DNA from: Bacilli bacterium
Lineage (GTDB): Bacteria > Bacillota_I > Bacilli_A > RFN20 > CAG-826
Assembly: GCA_045597865.1 (NCBI GenBank)
Contig: JAZLKX010000039.1
Location: 1 to 64,000 of the forward strand
DNA: 64,000 nucleotides
Reading direction: 5' to 3'
The notes beneath the pieces were generated by a model that searched no databases, was not told where the DNA came from, and saw nothing but the letters and a program-made list of their open reading frames with translations. The stretch's first letter is position 1; each line of letters begins with the position of its first letter. The position numbers and the translations under genes were made by a program. Shown piece after piece: positions 441 to 45,191 of the stretch.

Positions 441-1601
441 TTATAAATTAAGATCGTCAACTTCGAAGACAAGTTCAGCAATTTGCTTTTTAAATCTTTC
501 AAGAAGTTCAGGATGATCTTGGTACTTATCGAATCTATCAATAAGTTGAATGTAACAAAGGATTCTACATTTTTTGATAACAAGTGCAACTTGATCATTT
601 GTGTAGCCATTACAATACATCTCAATTGATTTATTGAAGAAATGGACTAAATGGTCATGTTCAATTCCAAAGAATTGCATTCCATTATCATGATCAATTT
701 CTTGATAACCAACATAGCTTGAATACATAAAACCAAGTTCGAAGATTGGAGAGCCCATTGATAATGTATCCATATCAATAATGAATGGTTCTTCGCCAAT
801 CATCATGACATTTTTAATGTGATAATCGCCATGTAGCATGTGATTATCATCTTTAATTCCCTTAACTAAAGAGATAATTCTATTACCGACATCTTTTGGA
901 AGCATTGGTTGAATTTCTTTAGCCCAGCCAAGAACTTCTTCTTTTTTATCATTTAATTCACCTGGTTTAAGTTCTGCAGCGTGAATTACTTTTAATACAT
1001 CAACAGATTGTTTGACATATTTATCAATATTTCCGACATCAGCAATGATTTTTTCACAAAGTGTTTGAGCATCTAAAAGTTCAAAAACTGAACCATAGAA
1101 TTCACCAACTTTAACAATGTCCATAGGAATTGCGGTTGGAACGCCTAATACGAAAGCTTTTCTTGCAAGTTCTCTTTCATTTTCAATTCTGTCTAGGGTC
1201 ATTGCGTGTGAATAGACCTTAACGATTGTATCTTTTGAGAGTCTATAAATAGTTCCATAGTAGCCGTGTCCAATAACTTTACAGCCTTCAACGGAAATTT
1301 CTCTCATCTTTTTAGAAATCTTCATCATCTCGGTAAAACCGGTCATTTGGAAGATGTCGTAAGATTCAGGAGTTGCATCAACAACTTCTGTGTCTTTACA
1401 TGTTTTTTTAATTTTTAAAATTACTCTTAATCCAGCACTTGAAATGTACTCAAGATAAGAACAATCGATTCTTACTGCTTTAGCATTTGCGACATCGCTA
1501 ATGACTGCAGCTTCGAATTCTGGTGCGTTATTAGCATCAACTTTGCCAATAACTTTAATGCTCAATACACCATCGTCTAATACGTTTTTAATAATATCCA
1601 T
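441..1601 (-). CDS. STAS (anti-sigma antagonist) domain fused to an APH/protein-kinase-like phosphotransferase
   Basis: N-terminal LEYISSAGLR STAS motif; C-terminal IGHGYYGTIY loop, LHGDYHIKN catalytic loop and IIDMD. Confidence 0.85.
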   Translation of the reverse strand: MDIIKNVLDDGVLSIKVIGKVDANNAPEFEAAVISDVANAKAVRIDCSYLEYISSAGLRVILKIKKTCKDTEVVDATPESYDIFQMTGFTEMMKISKKMREISVEGCKVIGHGYYGTIYRLSKDTIVKVYSHAMTLDRIENERELARKAFVLGVPTAIPMDIVKVGEFYGSVFELLDAQTLCEKIIADVGNIDKYVKQSVDVLKVIHAAELKPGELNDKKEEVLGWAKEIQPMLPKDVGNRIISLVKGIKDDNHMLHGDYHIKNVMMIGEEPFIIDMDTLSMGSPIFELGFMYSSYVGYQEIDHDNGMQFFGIEHDHLVHFFNKSIEMYCNGYTNDQVALVIKKCRILCYIQLIDRFDKYQDHPELLERFKKQIAELVFEVDDLNL

Positions 1602-1618
1602 AAAATCAACTTCCTAAA

Positions 1619-2368
1619 TTAATGGTGATTAATTGTTTGAATATTGATAGCATTTGTAACTTTTTCAAGTTCCACTTTCACTACTTCAAGATTAAAATCA
1701 TCTTTCTTTGAAGCTGGGGAAAGTTTAAATGTTGTTTCAATACAATTATCTGCACCATTATTAACGATTTGGCTAGAAACTTCGCTAATAATGTATTCAT
1801 GTTCTTTTGCATAAGCAAGTAGTTTAGTCATAACCGGTTCGCTGTCTTTAGCAAGAACAATAAATTGTGGAGCGCCTTTTGTAACAGCTGTTTCGAGCTT
1901 ACGGAATACAATAAGGACAACCATAACAATGAGTGTTGAAGCAACTGCAAGAATAAAGTTCATAGAACCACAAGCAAGACCGACAGCCATAACAAGCCAT
2001 ACAGTACCAGCAGTAGTTAAACCTTTAATACCGCCTTGGAAATGAATAACACAACCAGCGCCTAAGAAACCAACACCGGTAATAACTTGAGCAGCTAAAC
2101 GAGCAACGTCGCGTTTCTCACCAAATGCTGCTGGGAAACCGTAGATGGATAAAATCATGATGATACAAGAACCAACACCAACCAACATGTGTGTTCTTAA
2201 ACCAGCACTACGTCCTCTTTTTTCTCTTTCAAGACCGATTATTCCACATAAAACAACGCAAAGTATTAATGCAATAGCGCAAAGGATTAAGTTACCCCAT
2301 GGCCAATCTCCGCCTAAACCAAAGTTATTATTGAAATATTCGGCTAATTTTTGATCTATAGTTGTCAT
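1619..2368 (-). CDS. MgtC/SapB family membrane protein
   Basis: GLEREKRGRSAGLRTHMLV, RLAAQVITGVGFLGAG and GLTTA signature motifs. Confidence 0.92.
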   Translation of the reverse strand: MTTIDQKLAEYFNNNFGLGGDWPWGNLILCAIALILCVVLCGIIGLEREKRGRSAGLRTHMLVGVGSCIIMILSIYGFPAAFGEKRDVARLAAQVITGVGFLGAGCVIHFQGGIKGLTTAGTVWLVMAVGLACGSMNFILAVASTLIVMVVLIVFRKLETAVTKGAPQFIVLAKDSEPVMTKLLAYAKEHEYIISEVSSQIVNNGADNCIETTFKLSPASKKDDFNLEVVKVELEKVTNAINIQTINHH

Positions 2369-38054: not shown

Positions 38055-39278
38055 CTATCCTTGATCCTTAAGCAGCCTCTTGTAGCTCAAATTCATAACA
38101 AGAGAACTTAATGGCGCAGTTATTAAAATAGATAAAGCAGAAACAGAAAGCACTATAATACCTGCAGCAATAACAACTTCTGCTCTAGAATTACCATTAG
38201 CAAACATTTGATTTCCTAGATCTAACAGTCCACCACCAATTGAGGCTTGAACTGTGGCTTTTGGCAAATAAGAAATAGTAACAAAAGATCTCTCTTTAAA
38301 GTTTAAATCAGTTTTAATTAAGCATCCTTGAACCATTAGTGATCTTGCGGTTAATGAGATTGCTAAGATTGCTAGAGCTGGCAAAATGTAAGTTGGAACG
38401 TATTCTAATCTAATTGATGCTCCAACCAAGAAAAATAGGAACATCTCAGCAGGAATCCATATTTTAGAAGCTTTAGCACTTAATGCTGTAGCCTTTTCTT
38501 TTCTAAACATTCTAATTACGATACACATAGAGATTGTTGCAAGTAAAGATGAGAAGCCTACATAAGGACTAATTACTTCTTCTAAAGCTACAAAGCCTAT
38601 ACCTATAGCGATTATTAAGAGTAATTTCATTGAATCTCTCGTGTGTACCTTTCCAAAAATAAGCTTTAATAAGAAGCCAAAACCTACACCAATTGCAACA
38701 CCAATAACGATAGATAACAAAATGTTTACAAAAGCCATGGTGTTTACATTACCGCCAGCTTCAATACTTATAAAAGTCTGATAGAAGACAATCATTACGA
38801 TGTCATCAATACTACTACCAGCTAAAACTAATTGAGGAATACCTTTCTTAGTTCCAACTTTTTCATCCATTAGTCTTGTCATCATTGGAATTACTACTGC
38901 AGGAGACACTGCACCAAGTACTGAACCAAGTAAAAAGGACTCAACATATGTTAAATCAAAGAATAAAGGAGCAACTAAGCCTACAACAATCATTTCAACT
39001 ACTGCAGGCATAAAAGACATCATAATAGCGGGTCTTCCTACTTTCTTTAAGTCTGCTACATCAAGCGATAAACCAGCTTTAACTAAAATAATAATTAAAG
39101 CAATTTTTCTTAAGTAAGGTGAAATTGCAGCAAGATTAGGATCAAATGCTCCTACCGCTTTAATTAAAATACCTAATAAAAGGTAGCCGATTAATGCTGG
39201 AACTTTAATTTTATTAAGTAATAGGAAAATTATTGCTCCACCACCTAGAATGATTAATAAGTCTAGAAAGAATAACAT
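38055..39278 (-). CDS. cation:proton antiporter (Na_H_Exchanger, NHA2/SLC9B-like)
   Basis: AVSPAVVIP, AGSSIDDI, YLPKATVQA; about 12 TM helices; start behind GGGAGG. Confidence 0.9.
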   Translation of the reverse strand: MLFFLDLLIILGGGAIIFLLLNKIKVPALIGYLLLGILIKAVGAFDPNLAAISPYLRKIALIIILVKAGLSLDVADLKKVGRPAIMMSFMPAVVEMIVVGLVAPLFFDLTYVESFLLGSVLGAVSPAVVIPMMTRLMDEKVGTKKGIPQLVLAGSSIDDIVMIVFYQTFISIEAGGNVNTMAFVNILLSIVIGVAIGVGFGFLLKLIFGKVHTRDSMKLLLIIAIGIGFVALEEVISPYVGFSSLLATISMCIVIRMFRKEKATALSAKASKIWIPAEMFLFFLVGASIRLEYVPTYILPALAILAISLTARSLMVQGCLIKTDLNFKERSFVTISYLPKATVQASIGGGLLDLGNQMFANGNSRAEVVIAAGIIVLSVSALSILITAPLSSLVMNLSYKRLLKDQG

Positions 39279-39300
39279 TTTGATACCTCCCAAAGTAAAT

Positions 39301-39340
39301 AAAAACTGACGTATCTAAAACAATGTCTAGATATCATCAG
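39301..39340 (-). terminator. riboswitch expression-platform terminator
   Basis: minus strand CUGAUGAUAUCUAGA-CAUUG-UUUUAGAUACGUCAG-UUUUU, overlapping the 3' end of the aptamer. Confidence 0.8.
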
Positions 39341-39383
39341 CATCAAATGCGGTTTGATTTAATCAGGGAGATATCATTCCCGA
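39326..39383 (-). ncRNA. fluoride riboswitch (crcB motif)
   Basis: minus strand GGGAAUGAUAUCUCCC...AAACC-GCAU-UUG-AUGC-UGAUGAUAUCUAG follows the known aptamer layout, including the GAUAUC/GAUAUC pseudoknot; extended -10 TGTTATGAT just upstream. Confidence 0.9.
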
Positions 39384-39410
39384 GATGTTTGTATCATAAC
39401 AAATTTAAAT

Positions 39411-39440
39411 AAAAAAACAAGGAATTATTTCTCTTCCTTG
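39411..39440 (-). terminator. intrinsic terminator ending the ~600-nt non-coding unit
   Basis: minus strand CAAGGAA-GAGAAAUAA-UUCCUUG followed by 7 U. Confidence 0.8.
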
Positions 39441-40010
39441 CCTATTGGAATTCAATAGCTTTAAATTTCAGAATTCCGTCAGATTAAACCGACCGATGTG
39501 CTTCTCATAATTTGTTTAAGTTGAAGCCCGCGTAGTTAGATGACGAACCAGGTCTTAGCTCCTTTAAAGCCCATCTAACTTTTTCCTAAGTACTAAGAGA
39601 CCAACTTAGGAAACATGTTCTCGTGGAGAACTAGGTGTTTGAGCTGCATTCACGTCATTTACGCATTATCCTTAGTGTTCTAAGGCATTAGCGTCACTGA
39701 TACATAGTTGAATTTTAATTGTATCAGCTGCACATCCTGTAGTCATTGGCTACTGGTTTCCTATTTGCTCATGTCTGGCTCCGGTATTACGCATACAAGC
39801 TCTAACTCTGCTACCGGTTAATATCACAAGTGATATCAGGGAGGATAATTCAACCACGAACTAATGAAGTTCACTTCAACAATTTTAACATAGACCTTTT
39901 AATGTCCCGAAAGGGTATCAACATCCCGTTAATTGCTTTTAACTTACTTATAAGAGAATTTCATTACTATTCTCAGGTAAGTTTGAAGTACTGCACTCTC
40001 TTGGCGCAGC
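39411..40010 (-). ncRNA. candidate large (~600 nt) highly structured ncRNA, family unassigned
   Basis: no minus-strand ORF in the track; own promoter and terminator; more than 12 helices, mostly with G-U wobbles on the minus strand; two pseudoknot pairings. Confidence 0.75.
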
Positions 40011-40017
40011 GAGAGAT

Positions 40018-40046
40018 ATTAAATCACTACTGAAAACTAAAAGCAA
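40018..40046 (-). promoter_or_regulatory. sigma70-type promoter of the candidate ncRNA
   Basis: minus strand TTGCTT-N17-TTTAAT with a TGn extension; likely +1 near G at 40010. Confidence 0.65.
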
Positions 40047-40055
40047 CAAAAATTT

Positions 40056-40081
40056 AAAAAGAGGACAAAACTTGTCCTTTT
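40056..40081 (-). terminator. intrinsic terminator of the DUF2075 gene
   Basis: minus strand AAGGACAA-GUU-UUGUCCUC-UUUUU. Confidence 0.78.
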
Positions 40082-40103
40082 AGTAAGATAATTTAGTTCT
40101 TTT

Positions 40104-42188
40104 CTAGAAAGGCAAGGTCACTGCATTGATCTTCTTTAAGAATGATCTATTTGTATCGTTTATTTCTTTAATTCCACATGACTTTAAGTATTCAAATGTT
40201 GAATCAAGATATTTTGCTAGTCCATAAGAATCCTGATAGTCTTCTTCTTTTGGAATATAAATAACTAATCCTTTTCTAGCTCTAGTTAAAAGAACTCTGT
40301 ATGAATTAAGTATGTGCTTCTTTTGAATGTCTGTTGATTCTACAAAACGTTTAAACGTAAGCATTCTTTGTTGATGCCATTCACCATTTGCGTAGTACAT
40401 GTCCATGTCCCAACCAAGTAATGCCCAGTCAATTTCTAAACCTTGGATGTTGAACTCGCTTGCAGCGTAAATTAATGAATTAGAAGAATCTCTACCTGTT
40501 TCATCAAGCATCCAATTTGCAAAATGCCAAGTATCAATGTTATCAAATAAATGTGAATACTTTCCTAGTGTTTTGCTATTGCTGCTACATAACTTGCCAC
40601 ATCTTTCTTTTCTCATTCTATTTAAGGAAATAAATTCTTCTGCAAGTTTGTAGTCTCTTGTAATACAAATTGGGTAGTTTGCAAACTTAGCAAAAGCCTC
40701 TTTTGCCTTATCTGGTTTATTATTAAGCAAAGCTTCTGAAAATTCTGATAGGTTTTTAGCGCGTGGAGTTCTAATACAAGTTTTTAAATATAAACCTTCA
40801 TTTTCTTGAACCCTATCACAGTTTAAAATTTGATCTTTATATCCAACTAAGTTATCTGCACTTTGAGAGAAGATCTCGTTTGATAATCTAATTTCCCATT
40901 CTTTGTGAACATTTAAAAGTGAATTAAACCATACACCTAAACCATTTTCACCAGTATAAATATCTTGGCCTAAACCAACGAGTGCAACAATAACACCCCA
41001 CTCCTTGTTATCAAAGACTGACAAAAGTAAATCAGCTTCAGACAAACCATAGTAGGATTTATCGGCACCCTTTTTAACTAACCACGCTTTAAGTTTCTCA
41101 TTATCCCAAACTCTTTGAGCTTCATCAAAGATAAGAACATTCTCATCAATGACTCTCTTTTTGTTTGAAATAATGTCTTGCTTAAAGGCGTGTAAGTCTT
41201 GAATAAATGACTTTACATCATTAACAGCTCTGTACTTGCTGGCATACTTTTCGGGATAGTTTTGGAAAGCATCCCTTCCTAAAGCTTCAGTTAAAACATT
41301 AATTAAAGGACCGTTACCACTAAAGAATACTGCTTCATTAGTGTTTTCGTCCGTACTATTCTTTGATTTACCTGCTAAATCTAAACCAACAAGAGTTTTA
41401 CCTGCACCAGGAACACCTGATACAAAGCAAATAATTTTCTTTTTATTAGCTTTAGCTTCTTCGATTATTGAATTTACTGTTAATTCAGTTACTTTTAAGT
41501 TTTCTTCGCCAGCATCAAATCTAAAGAAATCATCAACTTGGTTATTCATGTAGATTGATCTAGCGCTTTGAATAATGGTTGGATTAGGTTTAAATGGAGA
41601 ATTAACCCATGCATCAAATTCTTCTTTAGTTTTAATCTCTTCCGAAGCGTATTTTGACCTAATATAATCAATATACTGGTACATTTTCTTTGTATTTGCT
41701 TTGAAAAGTGAGAACAATTTGTCTTGTCCTAGGTCTGCAGTTGTAGAGCAATCGCTATCAGGAGCTTTGGTTGCAATGAGAATAGGCACAACGTATCTAT
41801 CTTGGTTTGCTTCATAAAAGTTTTTTAATGCGTAACCATAACCTTCTGCCTGATCAATGTATTCTGGTTCAAAATCAGAGATGTTATTTTTAAATTCTAG
41901 AGAATAAACAACACCACCCATAAGTAAAACAACATCAATACGCATATTAACGCGTGATAAGATGTATTCAAATATGATGTAACCTTCTTTGTCAGCAAGG
42001 TAATCTTTCAAAATTAAAATTTGATTATTCCATGCTTTTTGCTGAAGATGCAATTCATAAGTTTCAGATGATTCATCACTTTCAGTTAAAAATGTAACTA
42101 TATCTTCTGGATGTTTGTTATTAACAAAATCTTTAATTGTTGACTCATAATAGGTTCTGCCTGGAGTCCTTGAAAATTCAGCATTCAT
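40104..42188 (-). CDS. DUF2075 / Schlafen group 3-like helicase with an N-terminal PD-(D/E)XK-like nuclease domain
   Basis: FEY...RIDVVL...LEFK...QAEGY; Walker A GVPGAGKT; IFDEAQR; IQGLEID; NSYRVLLTRAR. Confidence 0.88.
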   Translation of the reverse strand: MNAEFSRTPGRTYYESTIKDFVNNKHPEDIVTFLTESDESSETYELHLQQKAWNNQILILKDYLADKEGYIIFEYILSRVNMRIDVVLLMGGVVYSLEFKNNISDFEPEYIDQAEGYGYALKNFYEANQDRYVVPILIATKAPDSDCSTTADLGQDKLFSLFKANTKKMYQYIDYIRSKYASEEIKTKEEFDAWVNSPFKPNPTIIQSARSIYMNNQVDDFFRFDAGEENLKVTELTVNSIIEEAKANKKKIICFVSGVPGAGKTLVGLDLAGKSKNSTDENTNEAVFFSGNGPLINVLTEALGRDAFQNYPEKYASKYRAVNDVKSFIQDLHAFKQDIISNKKRVIDENVLIFDEAQRVWDNEKLKAWLVKKGADKSYYGLSEADLLLSVFDNKEWGVIVALVGLGQDIYTGENGLGVWFNSLLNVHKEWEIRLSNEIFSQSADNLVGYKDQILNCDRVQENEGLYLKTCIRTPRAKNLSEFSEALLNNKPDKAKEAFAKFANYPICITRDYKLAEEFISLNRMRKERCGKLCSSNSKTLGKYSHLFDNIDTWHFANWMLDETGRDSSNSLIYAASEFNIQGLEIDWALLGWDMDMYYANGEWHQQRMLTFKRFVESTDIQKKHILNSYRVLLTRARKGLVIYIPKEEDYQDSYGLAKYLDSTFEYLKSCGIKEINDTNRSFLKKINAVTLPF

Positions 42189-42340
42189 AATTAAAGCTAT
42201 TTTAGCAGAAAATATTAAAAACGAAAGTTTTAAATCGGCTCATTAACTTATGATTGCTTCTACTTCGTTACGAATCAACTCAAAATTTCTTTCTTTCAAA
42301 TAAGGATTTTACTACAATCTCGAGAATTTTGTTTGTTCGT

Positions 42341-42373
42341 TTCGCAAATCTTAAAAATTTTAGTTTTTGCGAA
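42341..42373. repeat. 33-bp TTCGCA...TGCGAA repeat, copy downstream of the DUF4143 ATPase
   Basis: 30/33 identical to 43606-43638. Confidence 0.85.
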
Positions 42374-42376
42374 GTA

Positions 42377-43552
42377 TCATCCCAAAAATTCAGCAATATC
42401 AATTATAGATACACCTTTATAATCCGCTTCGGGATGTTTAGTTCTAGCAATGATAAGTTTAGGATAAGAGTCTTTTATGCTCAATAGTGGCGCGACTTCT
42501 CTTCTGAACGTTTCTTCTTTTGATATATCATCTGAAACTTGAATATACATTCTTTTGCCATTTTTAATGGCAACAAAGTCAATTTCCTTTTGGTATAGCA
42601 CACCAGCGTATATTTCATATCCTTGTCTTAATAATTCAAGAGCAACAAGATTTTCATAAATAAAACCATAATCAGTATCTTTTGATCCTAATTCTGCATA
42701 TCTAAATGATAAATCTGAAAGATAGTATTTCTTTTCTGTTTGGAGATATCCACCACCCTTGATATCAAATCTTGAGATTGGATAAAACAAAAAAGATTTA
42801 CAAAGATAATCAACATAATTAGCAACTGTCTTATCATTTGTTCTGACATAATTACTGGTAATGGAATTGGCTATATTTCTAAAAGAGGTTTTATTACCAA
42901 TGGTGTCCATTAAATATCTAGCTATCATTTTTAATAGTTCTTCATTCTCAATTTTATATTTATCAATAATATCTTTGATAATTGTAGATTTAAACACTCC
43001 ATCAACATATTTTTTAGCGTCATCACTATTTCTGTATAAGTAAGAACCAGACATGCCACCTTTTCTAACATAATCATCAAATGATTCGTTGTTGGTATTG
43101 AAGTATGTTTTATATTCTTTAAACGAAAAAGGAAGAACATTGATTTCAAAAGTTCTACCACCAAATAAAGTAGCTAAATCACTGGATAATAAGAAAGCAT
43201 TAGAACCAGTAATATAAATTTTATATTTTTCTTCATCGTGTAAAGAATTAATTACATTTTCAAAATTTTTACACATTTGAATTTCATCAATTAACAAATA
43301 GTTATCCATATTTTCTTTGTATTTCGATTGAATGTAATCATATAAAGAATTAGGATTAAGGAGTTTTTCAAATTCTTTCTTTGTTAGTAATATGCGAACA
43401 ACGTTATTGCCATCATTATTTTTTAATGCTTTTTCGAACATATCGAGGAGTTTTGATTTTCCTGAACGTCTAATTCCGGTAATTACTTTAATATCCGGAG
43501 TCTCAACTGTGGCGATTAGTTTTTCTAAATATTGTCTTTTAATAATTTTCAT
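42377..43552 (-). CDS. AAA_14 ATPase with a DUF4143 domain
   Basis: ITGIRRSGKS, IDEIQ, ITGSNA, KYYLSD, ENLVALEL, EIDFVA...YIQV. Confidence 0.92.
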   Translation of the reverse strand: MKIIKRQYLEKLIATVETPDIKVITGIRRSGKSKLLDMFEKALKNNDGNNVVRILLTKKEFEKLLNPNSLYDYIQSKYKENMDNYLLIDEIQMCKNFENVINSLHDEEKYKIYITGSNAFLLSSDLATLFGGRTFEINVLPFSFKEYKTYFNTNNESFDDYVRKGGMSGSYLYRNSDDAKKYVDGVFKSTIIKDIIDKYKIENEELLKMIARYLMDTIGNKTSFRNIANSITSNYVRTNDKTVANYVDYLCKSFLFYPISRFDIKGGGYLQTEKKYYLSDLSFRYAELGSKDTDYGFIYENLVALELLRQGYEIYAGVLYQKEIDFVAIKNGKRMYIQVSDDISKEETFRREVAPLLSIKDSYPKLIIARTKHPEADYKGVSIIDIAEFLG

Positions 43553-43605
43553 AAGTTCAAATATATTACTAAGTAATATCCTTTCGCATTGATATTATAT
43601 CACAC

Positions 43606-43638
43606 TTCGCATATCTTAACAATTTTAATTTTTGCGAA
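43606..43638. repeat. 33-bp TTCGCA...TGCGAA repeat overlapping the ATPase promoter
   Basis: the -35 of a minus-strand TTGTTA-N17-TATAAT promoter lies inside it; a third TTCGCA box sits at 43583. Confidence 0.85.
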
Positions 43639-43904
43639 ATGAACATATTTGATAAAAACATAAATAATTATTTATTAATTATTCATTTGTACAATTACTT
43701 ATATTTAATTTTTCCATAGGGCTGTTTACATAAATGATATCTTTTTACCGGTTTTTTACAGGTAACCACAACATTATAGAAATTTACCGATATTTACAGT
43801 TTTCGTTGGAAATGTCGGTTTTTTATTTTTTGGTAATAAAGAAGGTTCCACCACAATATTTGTTGTCTTCAGATGAAATTTCATATTTCTCACGGAAGAA
43901 GATC

Positions 43905-44465
43905 TCACTTATGAAATGGGCATCTAGTTCCAATGCACTGCTTGTTCCATGAAGAAAACTCACACTCAATTTCATCTAATTCCATTTCAACACCATATTT
44001 CTCTTTAACAAATCTAACCCCATTACTTAAAGATAAAAAAGCATTTCTTTTGCAGCATCTAGGTCCACCTATTTCGCTCATCTTATTAATTACTGATGAT
44101 GTAAATTCCATATTTTCAGCATAATAACTAGAAGAGCTCAAAGGACTGACTTCATGAATAATGGCCAATACTGCCGCAACAGATGCAACAGAACCACACA
44201 TTCCCCAATAGCCGCACATCGCCCCAGGCATTTTAATTGTTCTTTCCGCTAGAATATCAATGGCTTTTTCAAGATCGATATCTCCTCCACTGTTTTTGTA
44301 AGCAACCATAAACGATGCTCCATCTAGGAAATGATGCTCTGGTCCATGAATATTAACAAAATCCTTATGCATAATTGACTTTGCAATTTCTATAGGATTC
44401 TTGCTTTTGTTTTTTAAGACTTCTTCTTTTATAAGCTTATATTTTTCATCCAATGTATATTCCAT
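43905..44465 (-). CDS. DUF5714-like Cys-rich protein
   Basis: HGPEHH, CGYWGMCG, GGPRCCKR, CEFS..NKQC...CPF. Confidence 0.85.
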   Translation of the reverse strand: MEYTLDEKYKLIKEEVLKNKSKNPIEIAKSIMHKDFVNIHGPEHHFLDGASFMVAYKNSGGDIDLEKAIDILAERTIKMPGAMCGYWGMCGSVASVAAVLAIIHEVSPLSSSSYYAENMEFTSSVINKMSEIGGPRCCKRNAFLSLSNGVRFVKEKYGVEMELDEIECEFSSWNKQCIGTRCPFHK

Positions 44466-45113: not shown

Positions 45114-45191
45114 TGGTTGCAGAGGCGGGATTTGAACGCCGCGACCTTCAGGTTATGGGCCTGACGAGCTACCAGGCTGCTCTACTCTGCG
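45114..45191 (-). tRNA. initiator tRNA-Met (CAU), atypical
   Basis: cloverleaf with C1:A72 mismatch, fMet-type D arm, CAU anticodon and encoded CCA; TTGCAA-N17-TATTAT promoter upstream and a hairpin downstream. Confidence 0.93.

What the first reader, a model, noticed from the sequence alone, without database searches (positions are those of the whole stretch)
39411..40046. Stand-alone ~600-nt ornate non-coding RNA with its own promoter, terminator and two pseudoknots
Seen in sequence: a 600-nt gap with no minus-strand ORF in the track, visibly richer in G+C than neighbouring intergenic DNA. On the minus strand it starts at TTGCTT-N17-TTTAAT (40046-40018) and ends at a hairpin plus U7 terminator (39440-39411). 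The DUF2075 terminator insulates it upstream. Helices read by eye, given in plus coordinates: a 5' hairpin GCUGCGC/GUGCAGU (40010-39990); a multibranch domain closed by ACUUCAA/UUGAAGU (39989-39983 with 39879-39873); UGAUAUCA-CUUG-UGAUAUUA (39838-39819); CCGGUA/UACCGG (39817-39781); CUGAUACA/UGUAUCAG (39727-39697); CCUUAG/CUAAGG; GUUCUC/GAGAAC; a perfect 10-bp UUUCCUAAGU/ACUUAGGAAA (39613-39582); a 9-bp AGUUAGAUG/CAUCUAACU (39580-39534); and GUCGG/CUGAC. Long-range pairings: UGGUUGAAUU (39856-39847) matches the hairpin-loop sequence AAUUCAACUA (39714-39705) over 10 bp, and loop GGUCU (39602-39598) matches AGACC (39555-39551). Most imperfect pairs are G-U on the minus strand and A-C on the plus strand, which agrees with the promoter and terminator orientation. 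Established knowledge: this size and complexity is the class of OLE, ROOL and GOLLD RNAs. It lacks the hallmarks of RNase P (GAGGAAAGUCC), tmRNA (tRNA-like ends), T-boxes and group II intron domain V. Inference: a new large ncRNA class, or a divergent member of a known one.
Basis: partly seen in the sequence, partly recalled or inferred. Interest (0 to 1): 0.92.

Follow-up and report, generated by a model that had tools for sequence, protein, structure and literature searches.

The report
Single-domain member of giant modular RNA
The gap holds a real, folded non-coding RNA whose conserved heart is a little-known 61-base Rfam motif, and its relatives in rumen bacteria string one, three or five copies of the same roughly 320-base folded module into RNAs of up to about 1.7 kb.

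Summary

It is not wholly unknown. Rfam's cow-rumen-1 (RF02946, 61 nt, function unknown) matches 39820-39760 at 56.6 bits (cut-off 53.4). No other large-RNA family matches.

The main result is that cow-rumen-1 is only the core of a ~320-nt module. In rumen and hindgut Bacilli MAGs this module occurs mostly as three diverged tandem copies in one ~1.07-kb promoter-to-terminator unit, and sometimes as five (~1.7 kb).

In 36 non-redundant three-domain RNAs each domain shows the same 9-14 helices. Paired cells are 95.6-98.4%. Compensatory cells number 123-362, against 25-89 in shuffles. Each domain has two pseudoknots.

The window carries a rare single-domain form: a ~395-nt core plus a ~200-nt 3' extension shared only with one other species. 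His pseudoknots use the right loop once, but with a partner that is not conserved, and he missed the second conserved pseudoknot.

Function is unknown. I favour a stand-alone tertiary-structured scaffold or binding RNA.

The parts
40018..40046 (-). Promoter-like site: TTGCTT (40046-40041), 17-nt spacer, TTTAAT (40023-40018). The transcript start is inferred near 40011.
   Evidence: Sequence. Relatives have TTGACA/TTGCxx-17-(C/T)ATAAT at the same relative place, and UUG is conserved in at least 90% of 36 RNAs. Not flagged by the scan.
39411..40011 (-). Whole non-coding RNA (~600 nt) as bounded by promoter and strong terminator.
   Evidence: Contigs from RNA libraries of 4 studies lie within 39473-39983.
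39990..40010 (-). 5' hairpin GCUGCGC/GUGCAGU, lineage-specific.
   Evidence: 7 of 7 pairs in G000. Not testable: the only full-length relative is cut off here.
39873..39989 (-). 5' multi-helix junction. P3-equivalent ACUUCAA/UUGAAGU (39989-39983 / 39879-39873). Inserted hairpin 39982-39942. P4 (39936-39928 / 39889-39879). P5 hairpin, whose loop holds GUUGA (39927-39913). P5b (39907-39892).
   Evidence: The family P4 has 5 of 6 pairs with compensatory change in A1 and A2. P5b changes C-G to U-A against the short relatives.
39918..39922 (-). PK1 5' strand GUUGA in the P5 loop. It pairs with UCAAC at 39711-39707.
   Evidence: Invariant in all 7 single-domain sequences. The homologous pairing covaries in domain 1 (C-G 15, U-A 14, U-G 6 at one pair) and in domain 3 (U-A 24, C-G 7).
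39858..39872 (-). P6 hairpin GAACU/AGUUC.
   Evidence: The family P6 has 7 of 7 pairs with compensatory change.
39760..39820 (-). Match to Rfam cow-rumen-1 (RF02946). P9 CCGG/CCGG (39817-39814 / 39784-39781). P10 GCA/UGC (39811-39809 / 39793-39791). The loop carries the PK2 5' strand GAGCU (39802-39798). The 3' tail carries the Pj and P7 3' strands.
   Evidence: 56.6 bits against a gathering score of 53.4, E 1.2e-10. Coordinates.
39842..39856 (-). Pj 5' strand UGGU (39856-39853, pairs with GCCA 39779-39776) and P7 5' strand UCCU (39845-39842, pairs with AGGA 39762-39759).
   Evidence: P7's first pair is U-A here and G-C in the short relatives. P7 and Pj covary within and between domains.
39819..39838 (-). 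P8 hairpin UGAUAUCA-CUUG-UGAUAUUA.
   Evidence: The family P8 has 4 of 6 pairs with compensatory change.
39739..39753 (-). P11 hairpin with the conserved loop (CCAAUGA here, GCUAAUAAC in the family).
   Evidence: The family P11 has 5 of 6 pairs with compensatory change.
39697..39727 (-). P12 hairpin CUGAUACA/UGUAUCAG. Its loop holds the PK1 3' strand UCAAC (39711-39707).
   Evidence: The family P12 has 6 of 7 pairs with compensatory change.
39661..39694 (-). P13 hairpin CCUUAG/CUAAGG (39685-39670) with outer ACGC/GCGU.
   Evidence: The inner four pairs are kept in the short relatives. The outer pairs are not kept in G017.
39641..39645 (-). PK2 3' strand AGCUC. It pairs with the cow-rumen-1 loop GAGCU at 39802-39798.
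   Evidence: Against the short relatives, two pairs change on both sides in the same register (A-U to G-C and G-C to A-U). The homologous pairing covaries in all three domains of 36 RNAs. A second copy of the partner motif lies at 39561-39557.
39617..39631 (-). Hairpin GUUCUC/GAGAAC at the position where short relatives have their terminator. Possible weak terminator, which would end a ~395-nt core RNA.
   Evidence: Flagged terminator-like. Aligns with the terminators of the short relatives. An RNA-library contig bridges it (39553-39911).
39441..39616 (-). 3' extension shared only with G017. 10-bp hairpin 39613-39582. 10-bp helix 39580-39571 / 39543-39534. GUCGG/CUGAC 39493-39478. GGAAUUC/GAAUUCC 39477-39447.
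   Evidence: All pairs form in G000. There is one compensatory change (G-U to U-A) in the 39580-39534 helix against G017. The last ~55 nt are also present at the syntenic locus of G030, which lacks the RNA.
39411..39440 (-). Intrinsic terminator CAAGGAA-loop-UUCCUUG plus U7.

Best explanation
Window ~40011-39411 (minus strand) encodes a stand-alone, tertiary-structured non-coding RNA. It is a single-domain member of a modular RNA family of rumen and hindgut Bacilli. Until now only the family's most conserved 61 nt were catalogued, as Rfam cow-rumen-1.

Shown here:
- The family's building block is a ~320-nt domain.
- It has a 5' multi-helix junction (P3-P6).
- It has a core in which Pj and P7 enclose the cow-rumen-1 hairpin (P9/P10), followed by hairpins P11-P13.
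- Two pseudoknots close the fold. PK1 joins the P5 loop GUUGA to the P12 loop UCAAC. PK2 joins the cow-rumen-1 loop to a 3' element.
- Relatives concatenate 3 domains (order 1-2-3, ~1.07 kb) or 5 domains (1-2-1-2-3, ~1.7 kb) between one promoter and one terminator.
- Each domain's pseudoknot strands fit its own partner best.

The window's RNA is a domain-3-like single module (~395 nt, 40011-39617) followed by a ~200-nt lineage-specific 3' extension.

Inferred, not shown: the RNA acts in trans through its three-dimensional fold. I think it most likely serves as a multivalent platform that binds a protein or ligand at the invariant unpaired GACAYGA..GAAGAGG core, or assembles into a higher-order RNA particle. 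I do not think it acts by antisense pairing or by cis regulation. I give about 0.9 that it is a genuine structured RNA of this family, about 0.8 that it is its own transcript, and about 0.35 for the scaffold or binding mechanism.
For: Rfam: cow-rumen-1 matches 39820-39760 at 56.6 bits against a cut-off of 53.4. No other family matches meaningfully at E<=10.

Tandem copies: there are triplets spaced ~315-330 nt in 5 of 37 genomes of the genus. Among runs with complete flanks there are 44 three-unit runs, 8 singles, 1 five-unit run and 1 scored as two units. Typing gave 1-2-3 in 85 runs and 1-2-1-2-3 in 9.

Diversity: 36 non-redundant three-domain RNAs have a median pairwise identity of 64%.

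Covariation:
- Domain 3: 76 pairs, 98.4% of cells paired, 48 pairs with changes on both sides, 362 such cells against 88.5 +/- 9.9 in shuffles (0 of 500 shuffles reach it). Slid controls give 23-43% paired.
- Domain 1: 43 pairs, 96.6% paired, 123 cells against 25.2.
- Domain 2: 59 pairs, 95.6% paired, 233 cells against 59.0.

Strand: 132 G-U cells against 11 A-C cells.

Cognate pseudoknot partners fit best. PK1 is fully paired in 32, 35 and 27 of 36 RNAs for own-domain pairs, against 2-28 for cross-domain pairs. PK2 gives 33, 34 and 31 against 4-25.

The window's elements map onto the family, with compensatory changes in P7, P5b, P11 and PK2.

No conserved neighbour gene: the largest shared cluster occurs in 9 of 57 loci.

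RNA-library contigs from 4 studies lie on 39473-39983, one with word depth 730. Sixteen of 21 collection contigs of 1250 nt or less begin 160-176 nt before the first core, a few bases after the predicted start. Most end at the 3' tail.
Against: Function is untested, and nothing here shows binding, assembly or catalysis.

The Rfam score only just passes the cut-off, and the short single-domain relatives fall below it (48.2 bits; no hit in L035).

The full-length form exists in only two species (G000 and G017, 93% identity). The 5' hairpin and most of the 3' extension therefore rest on single-sequence folding plus one compensatory pair.

The long-range helix GAUGUGC/GCACAUC picks up two C-A mismatches in G017.

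The last ~55 nt, including the terminator region, also occur at the syntenic locus of G030, which lacks the RNA. The 3' end may therefore belong to another element.

The family is sporadic: 8 of 37 genomes of the genus and 3 of 151 of the order. It is not essential.

RNA-library contigs cannot prove transcription, strand or ends. That the ~1-kb collection contigs are transcripts is my inference.

The alignments are MAFFT alignments and I chose the structures after looking at them, which favours the observed values over the slid controls.
Confidence: 0.78

Rival explanations
1. The true RNA is only the ~395-nt core (40011-39617), ending at the GUUCUC/GAGAAC hairpin. The remaining ~200 nt would be read-through or a separate locus-native element (an attenuator-like hairpin pair plus terminator ahead of the fluoride riboswitch).
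For: The hairpin at 39631-39617 was flagged terminator-like and aligns with the terminators of the short relatives. G030 keeps the last ~55 nt and the riboswitch locus without the RNA. In 39477-39418 two 7-bp hairpins exclude each other (sequence; noted).
Against: The tail after the hairpin is U-poor (AUGUUUCC). G017 keeps the whole extension at 96% identity although its downstream DNA differs. There is one compensatory change in the 39580-39534 helix. An RNA-library contig spans 39553-39911 across the hairpin.
Confidence: 0.25
2. It is a decaying remnant of a multi-domain gene and no longer functional.
For: It has a single domain where most relatives have three. Its Rfam score is the weakest in the genus that still passes the cut-off (56.6, equal with G017's 56.1, against 54-85 for the others). 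The family is patchy. G030 shows that the locus can lose the RNA. A duplicate PK2-partner motif in the 3' extension looks like a leftover domain boundary.
Against: The promoter and terminator are intact. Every core helix and both pseudoknots are intact. There are compensatory differences from the short relatives rather than random decay. Identity with another species is 93-96% while the flanks are unalignable. RNA-library contigs of near-identical sequence occur in 4 studies. None of the 6 assemblies with single-domain genes also carries a multi-domain gene in the list, as expected if the single form substitutes for the multi-domain form.
Confidence: 0.1
3. It is a cis-acting leader or riboswitch controlling the downstream transporter gene.
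For: It lies on the same strand upstream of a Na+/H+ exchanger gene.
Against: A hairpin+U7 terminator ends it. The downstream gene has its own fluoride-riboswitch-like leader at 39390-39321. In 57 loci the neighbours differ, and no shared cluster exceeds 9 loci. G017 has different downstream DNA.
Confidence: 0.03
4. It is the RNA component of a mobile element or a guide-RNA system (HEARO/omega-RNA-like, retron-like or intron-like), or a self-cleaving tandem repeat.
For: Its genomic context varies and some MAGs hold several copies. The units are tandem.
Against: No transposase, TnpB, reverse transcriptase or integrase turned up among the nine recurrent neighbour clusters annotated. The pattern has no match in 2.9 million viral contigs. 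No intron, ribozyme or HEARO model matches at E<=1 on a three-domain locus. The units are old and diverged, with a fixed order 1-2-3, unlike replicating repeats.
Confidence: 0.05
5. It is a decayed protein-coding gene.
For: None beyond the 67-aa antisense frame.
Against: That frame has no Pfam match at E<=1. In 36 relatives the longest stop-free runs have a median of 70-74 aa on either strand over ~1073 nt, with none conserved. Substitutions are compensatory in helices.
Confidence: 0.01

Closest known systems
cow-rumen-1 RNA motif (Rfam RF02946; by recall it comes from the supplement of Weinberg et al. 2017, which I could not see)
   Same: The window matches the whole 61-position model above its gathering score. 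The model's hairpin equals P9/P10 of the domain, and its conserved 3' tail holds the Pj and P7 strands.
   Different: The Rfam model covers 61 nt with one hairpin and treats the tail as unpaired. Here it is about a fifth of a ~320-nt domain with 12 or more helices and two pseudoknots. One pseudoknot uses the loop that the Rfam model closes with a 3-bp inner helix. In domain 3 that inner helix has a U-U in 35 of 36 sequences at its third pair. Tandem and multi-domain organisation is not part of the model. No text in the searchable library mentions the motif.
ROOL, GOLLD and OLE: large ornate bacterial RNAs of unknown function
   Same: Size class, many multistem junctions and pseudoknots, stand-alone genes with no known partner, rumen or Firmicutes habitat. 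The ROOL description (average 581 nt, six multistem junctions, three pseudoknots) was read in a passage of PMC5737381. ROOL forms an octameric cage according to a passage of the FAST-MaP preprint.
   Different: There is no sequence or structure match to any of them at E<=10 or E<=1. This family is built from internally repeated homologous domains (1, 3 or 5), which as far as I recall is not described for those RNAs. It was not found in viral contigs, whereas by recall ROOL and GOLLD are often in prophages.
Tandem riboswitch aptamers (for example glycine)
   Same: Homologous folded domains are repeated in one transcript, each with an invariant unpaired core.
   Different: Those domains are 5' leaders of regulated genes. 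Here a terminator follows the last domain and the downstream genes are not conserved. The domains are also several times larger.

Membership tests
cow-rumen-1 (RF02946) | Covariance-model score at or above the curated gathering score over the full model | tested here: met
   56.6 bits against 53.4, model positions 1-61 of 61, E 1.2e-10. Two pairs are non-canonical in the printed alignment.
cow-rumen-1 (RF02946) | Outer 4-bp and inner 5-bp stems around the GUUAGAGCUU loop, followed by the conserved tail ..GCC.GACA.GA..AA.AGG | tested here: met
   CCGG/CCGG and GCA/UGC are present, the loop is AGAGUUAGAGCUUGUA and the tail is GCCAGACAUGAGCAAAUAGG.
Multi-domain cow-rumen-1-containing RNA family (defined here) | Domain helices P4, P5b, P6, Pj, P7, P8, P9, P10, P11, P12 and P13 in the family order | tested here: met
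   All can form at the homologous positions in the window. The family helices are supported by covariation.
Multi-domain cow-rumen-1-containing RNA family (defined here) | PK1 (P5 loop with P12 loop) and PK2 (cow-rumen-1 loop with the 3' element) | tested here: met
   GUUGA 39922-39918 with UCAAC 39711-39707. GAGCU 39802-39798 with AGCUC 39645-39641, which shows two compensatory changes against the short relatives.
Multi-domain cow-rumen-1-containing RNA family (defined here) | Three (or five) tandem domains in one transcription unit | tested here: not met
   There is one domain only in the window and one copy in its genome. The window belongs to the single-domain minority: 8 of 54 complete runs.
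ROOL / GOLLD / OLE / HEARO / raiA | Match to the Rfam covariance model | tested here: not met
   None is listed at E<=10 on window 39200-40250 or at E<=1 on a three-domain locus. That all of these models are in the library is partly recalled; HEARO and raiA accessions appear.
RNase P, tmRNA, T-box, group I/II introns | Match to the Rfam covariance model | tested here: not met
   No such hit.
Fluoride riboswitch (RF01734), neighbouring element and not part of the RNA | Score at or above the gathering score | tested here: inconclusive
   32.9 bits against 34, E 4.5e-07, full model, at 39390-39321. It lies before a Na_H_Exchanger gene.

The most novel reading that the evidence does not exclude
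cow-rumen-1 is the visible tip of an unreported family of modular giant RNAs. The family repeats a ~320-nt double-pseudoknotted domain once, three times or five times (about 0.33-0.6, 1.07 and 1.7 kb). The larger forms would exceed GOLLD and ROOL and be among the largest bacterial structured RNAs that are neither ribosomal RNA nor introns. The fixed 1-2-3 order and the domain-specific pseudoknot 'codes' suggest a pseudo-symmetric multi-domain particle. Single-domain forms such as the window's would reach the same architecture by homo-oligomerising. This is consistent with single- and multi-domain genes never sharing an assembly in the 33 real MAGs plus the window's genome.
Probability: 0.5. 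Interest if true: 0.88.

Novelty: new variant of a known kind. Interest (0 to 1): 0.8.

Why it matters
Large, intricately folded bacterial RNAs are rare, and each has opened new biology: ribozymes, RNA cages, RNA-guided nucleases. This case has four points of interest.

1. A 61-nt database motif of unknown function turns out to be a fragment of RNAs ten to thirty times longer.
2. It gives a natural example of domain duplication and concatenation in a structured RNA. Each copy keeps pseudoknot pairings that fit its own partner best, which bears on how repeated RNA domains avoid misfolding.
3. It supplies a ready, covariation-supported target of 36 diverse sequences at 64% identity for cryo-EM and probing.
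4. The RNA appears abundant in rumen and hindgut RNA libraries, in a poorly known lineage of small-genome Bacilli.

Tried and rejected
Alternative closing helix. Pairing the AAGCUGGCC after P11 with upstream GGCC..AGCUU was tested on alignment A1 and rejected. Changes produce A-C and C-A mismatches in 4-10 of 36 sequences at several pairs. The competing GCUGG/CCAGC helix stays 100% paired, with 2 compensatory pairs.

Rfam's inner 3-bp helix of the hairpin. In domain 3 its third pair is U-U in 35 of 36 sequences. The same nucleotides covary in PK2 instead.

UGGUUGAAUU with AAUUCAACUA is intact in G000 and G017 but has no counterpart in the short single-domain relatives, and it overlaps Pj. GGUCU with AGACC has no variation available.

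Long-range helix GAUGUGC/GCACAUC. Two C-A mismatches appear in G017. The alternative UGUG/CGCG gains two C-G pairs. The question is unresolved with two sequences.

Alignment A4 of single-domain forms. MAFFT misaligned the length-variable hairpins P4, P6, P8 and P12, so I did not run pair counts on it. I used only the well-aligned pairs.

Conserved neighbour or partner protein. None was found.

Viral contigs. The pattern has 0 matches.

Literature. 'cow-rumen-1' gave 0 papers. 'cow-rumen / RF02946 / cow rumen-1 / cow-rumen-2' with matching anywhere gave 18 papers, none on this motif. Of those I read only the matching passages of the Rfam 15 paper and the FAST-MaP preprint. The main text of PMC5737381 does not contain 'cow-rumen'; its supplements, which probably describe the motif, are closed. 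Two broader searches found nothing on such an RNA; I saw only their listings and abstract starts. One preprint (10.64898/2026.07.01.735769) was checked by term search only.

Reads. The four RNA-library runs gave no cover on 38800-39472 or 39984-40700.

I built no covariance model, ran no R-scape and made no 3-D prediction. Structure prediction, complex prediction and the protein-homology searches were not relevant and were not used.
Full report
**1. The observation**

The interval 39294-40103 has no minus-strand ORF of 40 aa or more. The only frame is a 67-aa plus-strand ORF at 39830-40033, and it has no Pfam match.

The consensus scan flagged neither. It did flag the upstream gene's terminator at 40078-40062 and a hairpin at 39631-39617.

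G+C peaks at 0.415 inside the gap, against 0.30-0.35 outside. All ten helices and both long-range pairings in the finding are fully complementary at the stated coordinates. The minus strand folds at z = -3.2 against shuffles and the plus strand at z = -2.4. Folding energy alone is therefore weak evidence.

**2. What Rfam says**

At gathering thresholds the window has two hits: a tRNA elsewhere, and cow-rumen-1 (RF02946) at 39820-39760 on the minus strand. The cow-rumen-1 hit scores 56.6 bits against a cut-off of 53.4.

A permissive search of 39200-40250 (E<=10) added only a near-threshold fluoride riboswitch at 39390-39321 and noise. There was no ROOL, GOLLD, OLE, HEARO, RNase P, tmRNA, T-box or intron hit. 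The finding therefore overlaps a catalogued motif, but a 61-nt one with no known function.

**3. Relatives reveal the real unit**

The window's genome holds one copy. In its genus, 8 of 37 genomes match RF02946, and five of them carry three matches spaced ~315-330 nt apart. In G023 the three copies lie in an ~1.1-kb ORF-free stretch with a promoter-like site and two terminators. Only cow-rumen-1 matches there, three times, at E<=1.

A 22-letter degenerate pattern found 42 stretches among 185,579 species genomes. Thirty-nine are in 33 rumen, reindeer, deer, buffalo, sheep, goat or horse MAGs labelled Bacilli, Erysipelotrichaceae or Bacillales. Three are chance hits in other taxa. The pattern also found 75 metagenome stretches and no viral contigs.

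A profile of the core found 341 units in 114 of these 117 loci. Among runs with complete flanks there were 44 triplets, 8 singles, 1 quintet and 1 scored as a pair. That pair is a triplet with one long spacer.

Typing each unit with domain-specific profiles gave the order 1-2-3 in 85 runs (45 away from locus ends) and 1-2-1-2-3 in 9 runs, of which 1 is fully internal in L044. The window's unit typed as domain 3. L044 has eight Rfam-level matches, five in one array and three in another. It has one promoter-like site ahead of the five-unit array and no minus-strand terminator-like site inside it.

A sample of the order gave 3 of 151 genomes with a match, all in the window's family and in two genera.

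**4. The structure is supported by covariation**

The 44 complete three-domain RNAs reduce to 36 at under 95% identity, with a median pairwise identity of 64%. I aligned the three domain positions separately with the alignment tool (A1 = domain 3, A2 = domain 1, A3 = domain 2). I then counted pairs for structures that I wrote after a covariation scan.

| Domain | Pairs / helices | Cells paired | Pairs changed on both sides | Compensatory cells (observed vs shuffled) | Slid controls |
|---|---|---|---|---|---|
| 3 | 76 / 14 | 98.4% | 48 | 362 vs 88.5 +/- 9.9 (0 of 500 shuffles as high) | 23-43% paired |
| 1 | 43 / 9 | 96.6% | 22 | 123 vs 25.2 | 25-44% paired |
| 2 | 59 / 14 | 95.6% | 34 | 233 vs 59.0 | 34-44% paired |

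Both pseudoknots covary:
- PK1 in domain 1 has one pair with C-G 15, U-A 14 and U-G 6.
- PK1 in domain 3 has one pair with U-A 24, C-G 7 and U-G 5.
- PK2 in domain 1 has A-U 26 / G-C 10 at one pair and C-G 24 / U-A 10 at another.
- PK2 in domain 2 has G-C 20 / A-U 13.
- PK2 in domain 3 has A-U 28 with G-C 4, C-G 1 and U-A 1.

G-U cells outnumber A-C cells 132 to 11, which fixes the strand.

An alternative closing helix was rejected. Across the three domains, the pseudoknot strands of a domain fit its own partner best. This argues for intra-domain pairing and for sequence 'codes' that keep repeated domains from cross-pairing.

Two caveats apply. I chose the structures after inspecting these alignments. 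The sequences are also related, so the shuffle control overstates significance. The slid controls and the number of independent pair types are the sounder measures.

**5. Mapping the window onto the family**

Only G017 (= L063, a horse-faeces MAG) matches the window's RNA over its length, at 93% identity. Nine loci carry a shorter single-domain form of about 330 nt that matches only query positions 108-395.

Coordinates of the window's elements are and are listed under parts. Compared with the short form, the window shows:
- P7: U-A becomes G-C.
- P5b: C-G becomes U-A.
- P11: A-U becomes G-C.
- PK2: two changes on both sides in the same register, between GAGCU 39802-39798 and AGCUC 39645-39641.

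PK1 (GUUGA 39922-39918 with UCAAC 39711-39707) is invariant in all seven single-domain sequences.

Its first four bases, UGGU, are the position-homologue of the Pj strand that pairs with GCCA at 39779-39776.

The hairpin at 39631-39617 aligns with the terminators of the short form. The window's RNA is therefore a ~395-nt core plus a ~200-nt extension. That extension is shared at 96% with G017. It shows one compensatory change, G-U to U-A in the 39580-39534 helix.

The last ~55 nt also occur in G030. There they lie upstream of the same fluoride-riboswitch-like element and exchanger gene, but without the RNA. The RNA gene was therefore either lost in G030 or gained next to a pre-existing element.

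**6. Expression**

Contigs from four metatranscriptomic runs of four studies lie on 39473-39983 at 90-99% likeness. One (39553-39911) has word depth 730 and bridges the weak hairpin. The tool warns that such contigs do not prove transcription, strand or ends.

Separately, 16 of 21 collection contigs of 1250 nt or less start 160-176 nt before the first core, which is a few bases after the predicted start. Most stop at the 3' tail. I read these as assembled transcripts, but that is an inference. The collection appears to keep only contigs of about 1 kb or more, which biases lengths.

**7. Context and function**

Neighbours differ between loci. The largest shared cluster is an endonuclease I homologue in 9 of 57 loci, followed by a carbohydrate-binding protein in 8.

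In the window the neighbours are:
- a Schlafen-group-3/DUF2075 helicase upstream;
- AAA_14/DUF4143 and DUF5714 genes further up;
- the riboswitch-led Na+/H+ exchanger downstream.

This rules out a leader role and offers no partner protein. The invariant unpaired stretch between Pj and P7, inside a fold locked by two pseudoknots, looks like a binding or active site, and its repetition suggests multivalency.

I therefore favour a trans-acting scaffold or binding RNA, or a self-assembling particle in the manner of ROOL. ROOL forms an octameric cage according to the passage read. I hold this at about one in three.

**8. Known or new**

The motif is in Rfam. I found no text on it in the searchable library and could not open the 2017 supplement.

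According to the 2017 main text, only ribosomal RNAs, GOLLD and group II introns exceed ROOL's 581 nt in bacteria. The three- and five-domain forms described here would join that short list.

The window's own RNA is a variant of a catalogued family, not a new class. The family as a whole seems much larger and stranger than its database entry.

Noticed in passing
window 39321-39390 (-) and 38058-39278 (-): A fluoride-riboswitch-like element (32.9 bits, cut-off 34) lies directly upstream of a Na_H_Exchanger family gene. The same arrangement is found in G030 (L003).
   Followed up: partly
L003 (G030) 1380-1890 (-): This is the syntenic locus without the RNA. It keeps the last ~55 nt of the window's RNA at 93% identity, plus a diverged remnant (…GUAGAAGCAAUCAC…), then the riboswitch. 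That suggests loss or gain of the RNA gene at this site.
   Followed up: partly
window 39418-39477 (-): Two mutually exclusive 7-bp hairpins (GGAAUUC/GAAUUCC and GCUAUUG/CAAUA(G)GC) lie just before the terminator. The first strand is also complementary to the terminator's 3' strand. The layout is attenuator-like.
   Followed up: no
L044 1122-2779 (-): A five-domain variant (order 1-2-1-2-3) of about 1.7 kb sits behind one promoter-like site. A separate three-domain gene lies ~1.7 kb away on the same contig.
   Followed up: partly
L115, L116, L133 (e.g. L133 6742-8800 +): Two three-domain genes lie head to tail about 500 nt apart. Several MAGs hold 2-3 loci (for example those behind L034/L052/L060 and L040/L044).
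   Followed up: no
upstream of three-domain genes, e.g. L006 810-830: G+C-rich CGCGCG-type palindromes lie ~150-200 nt upstream of the promoters, in otherwise A+T-rich DNA, in four of the five genus genomes that carry three-domain genes (the G012 contig is cut short upstream).
   Followed up: no
one search list of assemblies: The 5 assemblies with single-domain genes (plus the window's genome) and the 28 with multi-domain genes do not overlap. This is pattern-limited, and the genomes are related.
   Followed up: partly
window 40107-44465 (-) and 45117-45191 (-): Upstream lies a run of a Schlafen-like/DUF2075 helicase, an AAA_14+DUF4143 ATPase and a DUF5714 protein, then a tRNA gene. The composition resembles a defence or mobile island.
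   Followed up: no
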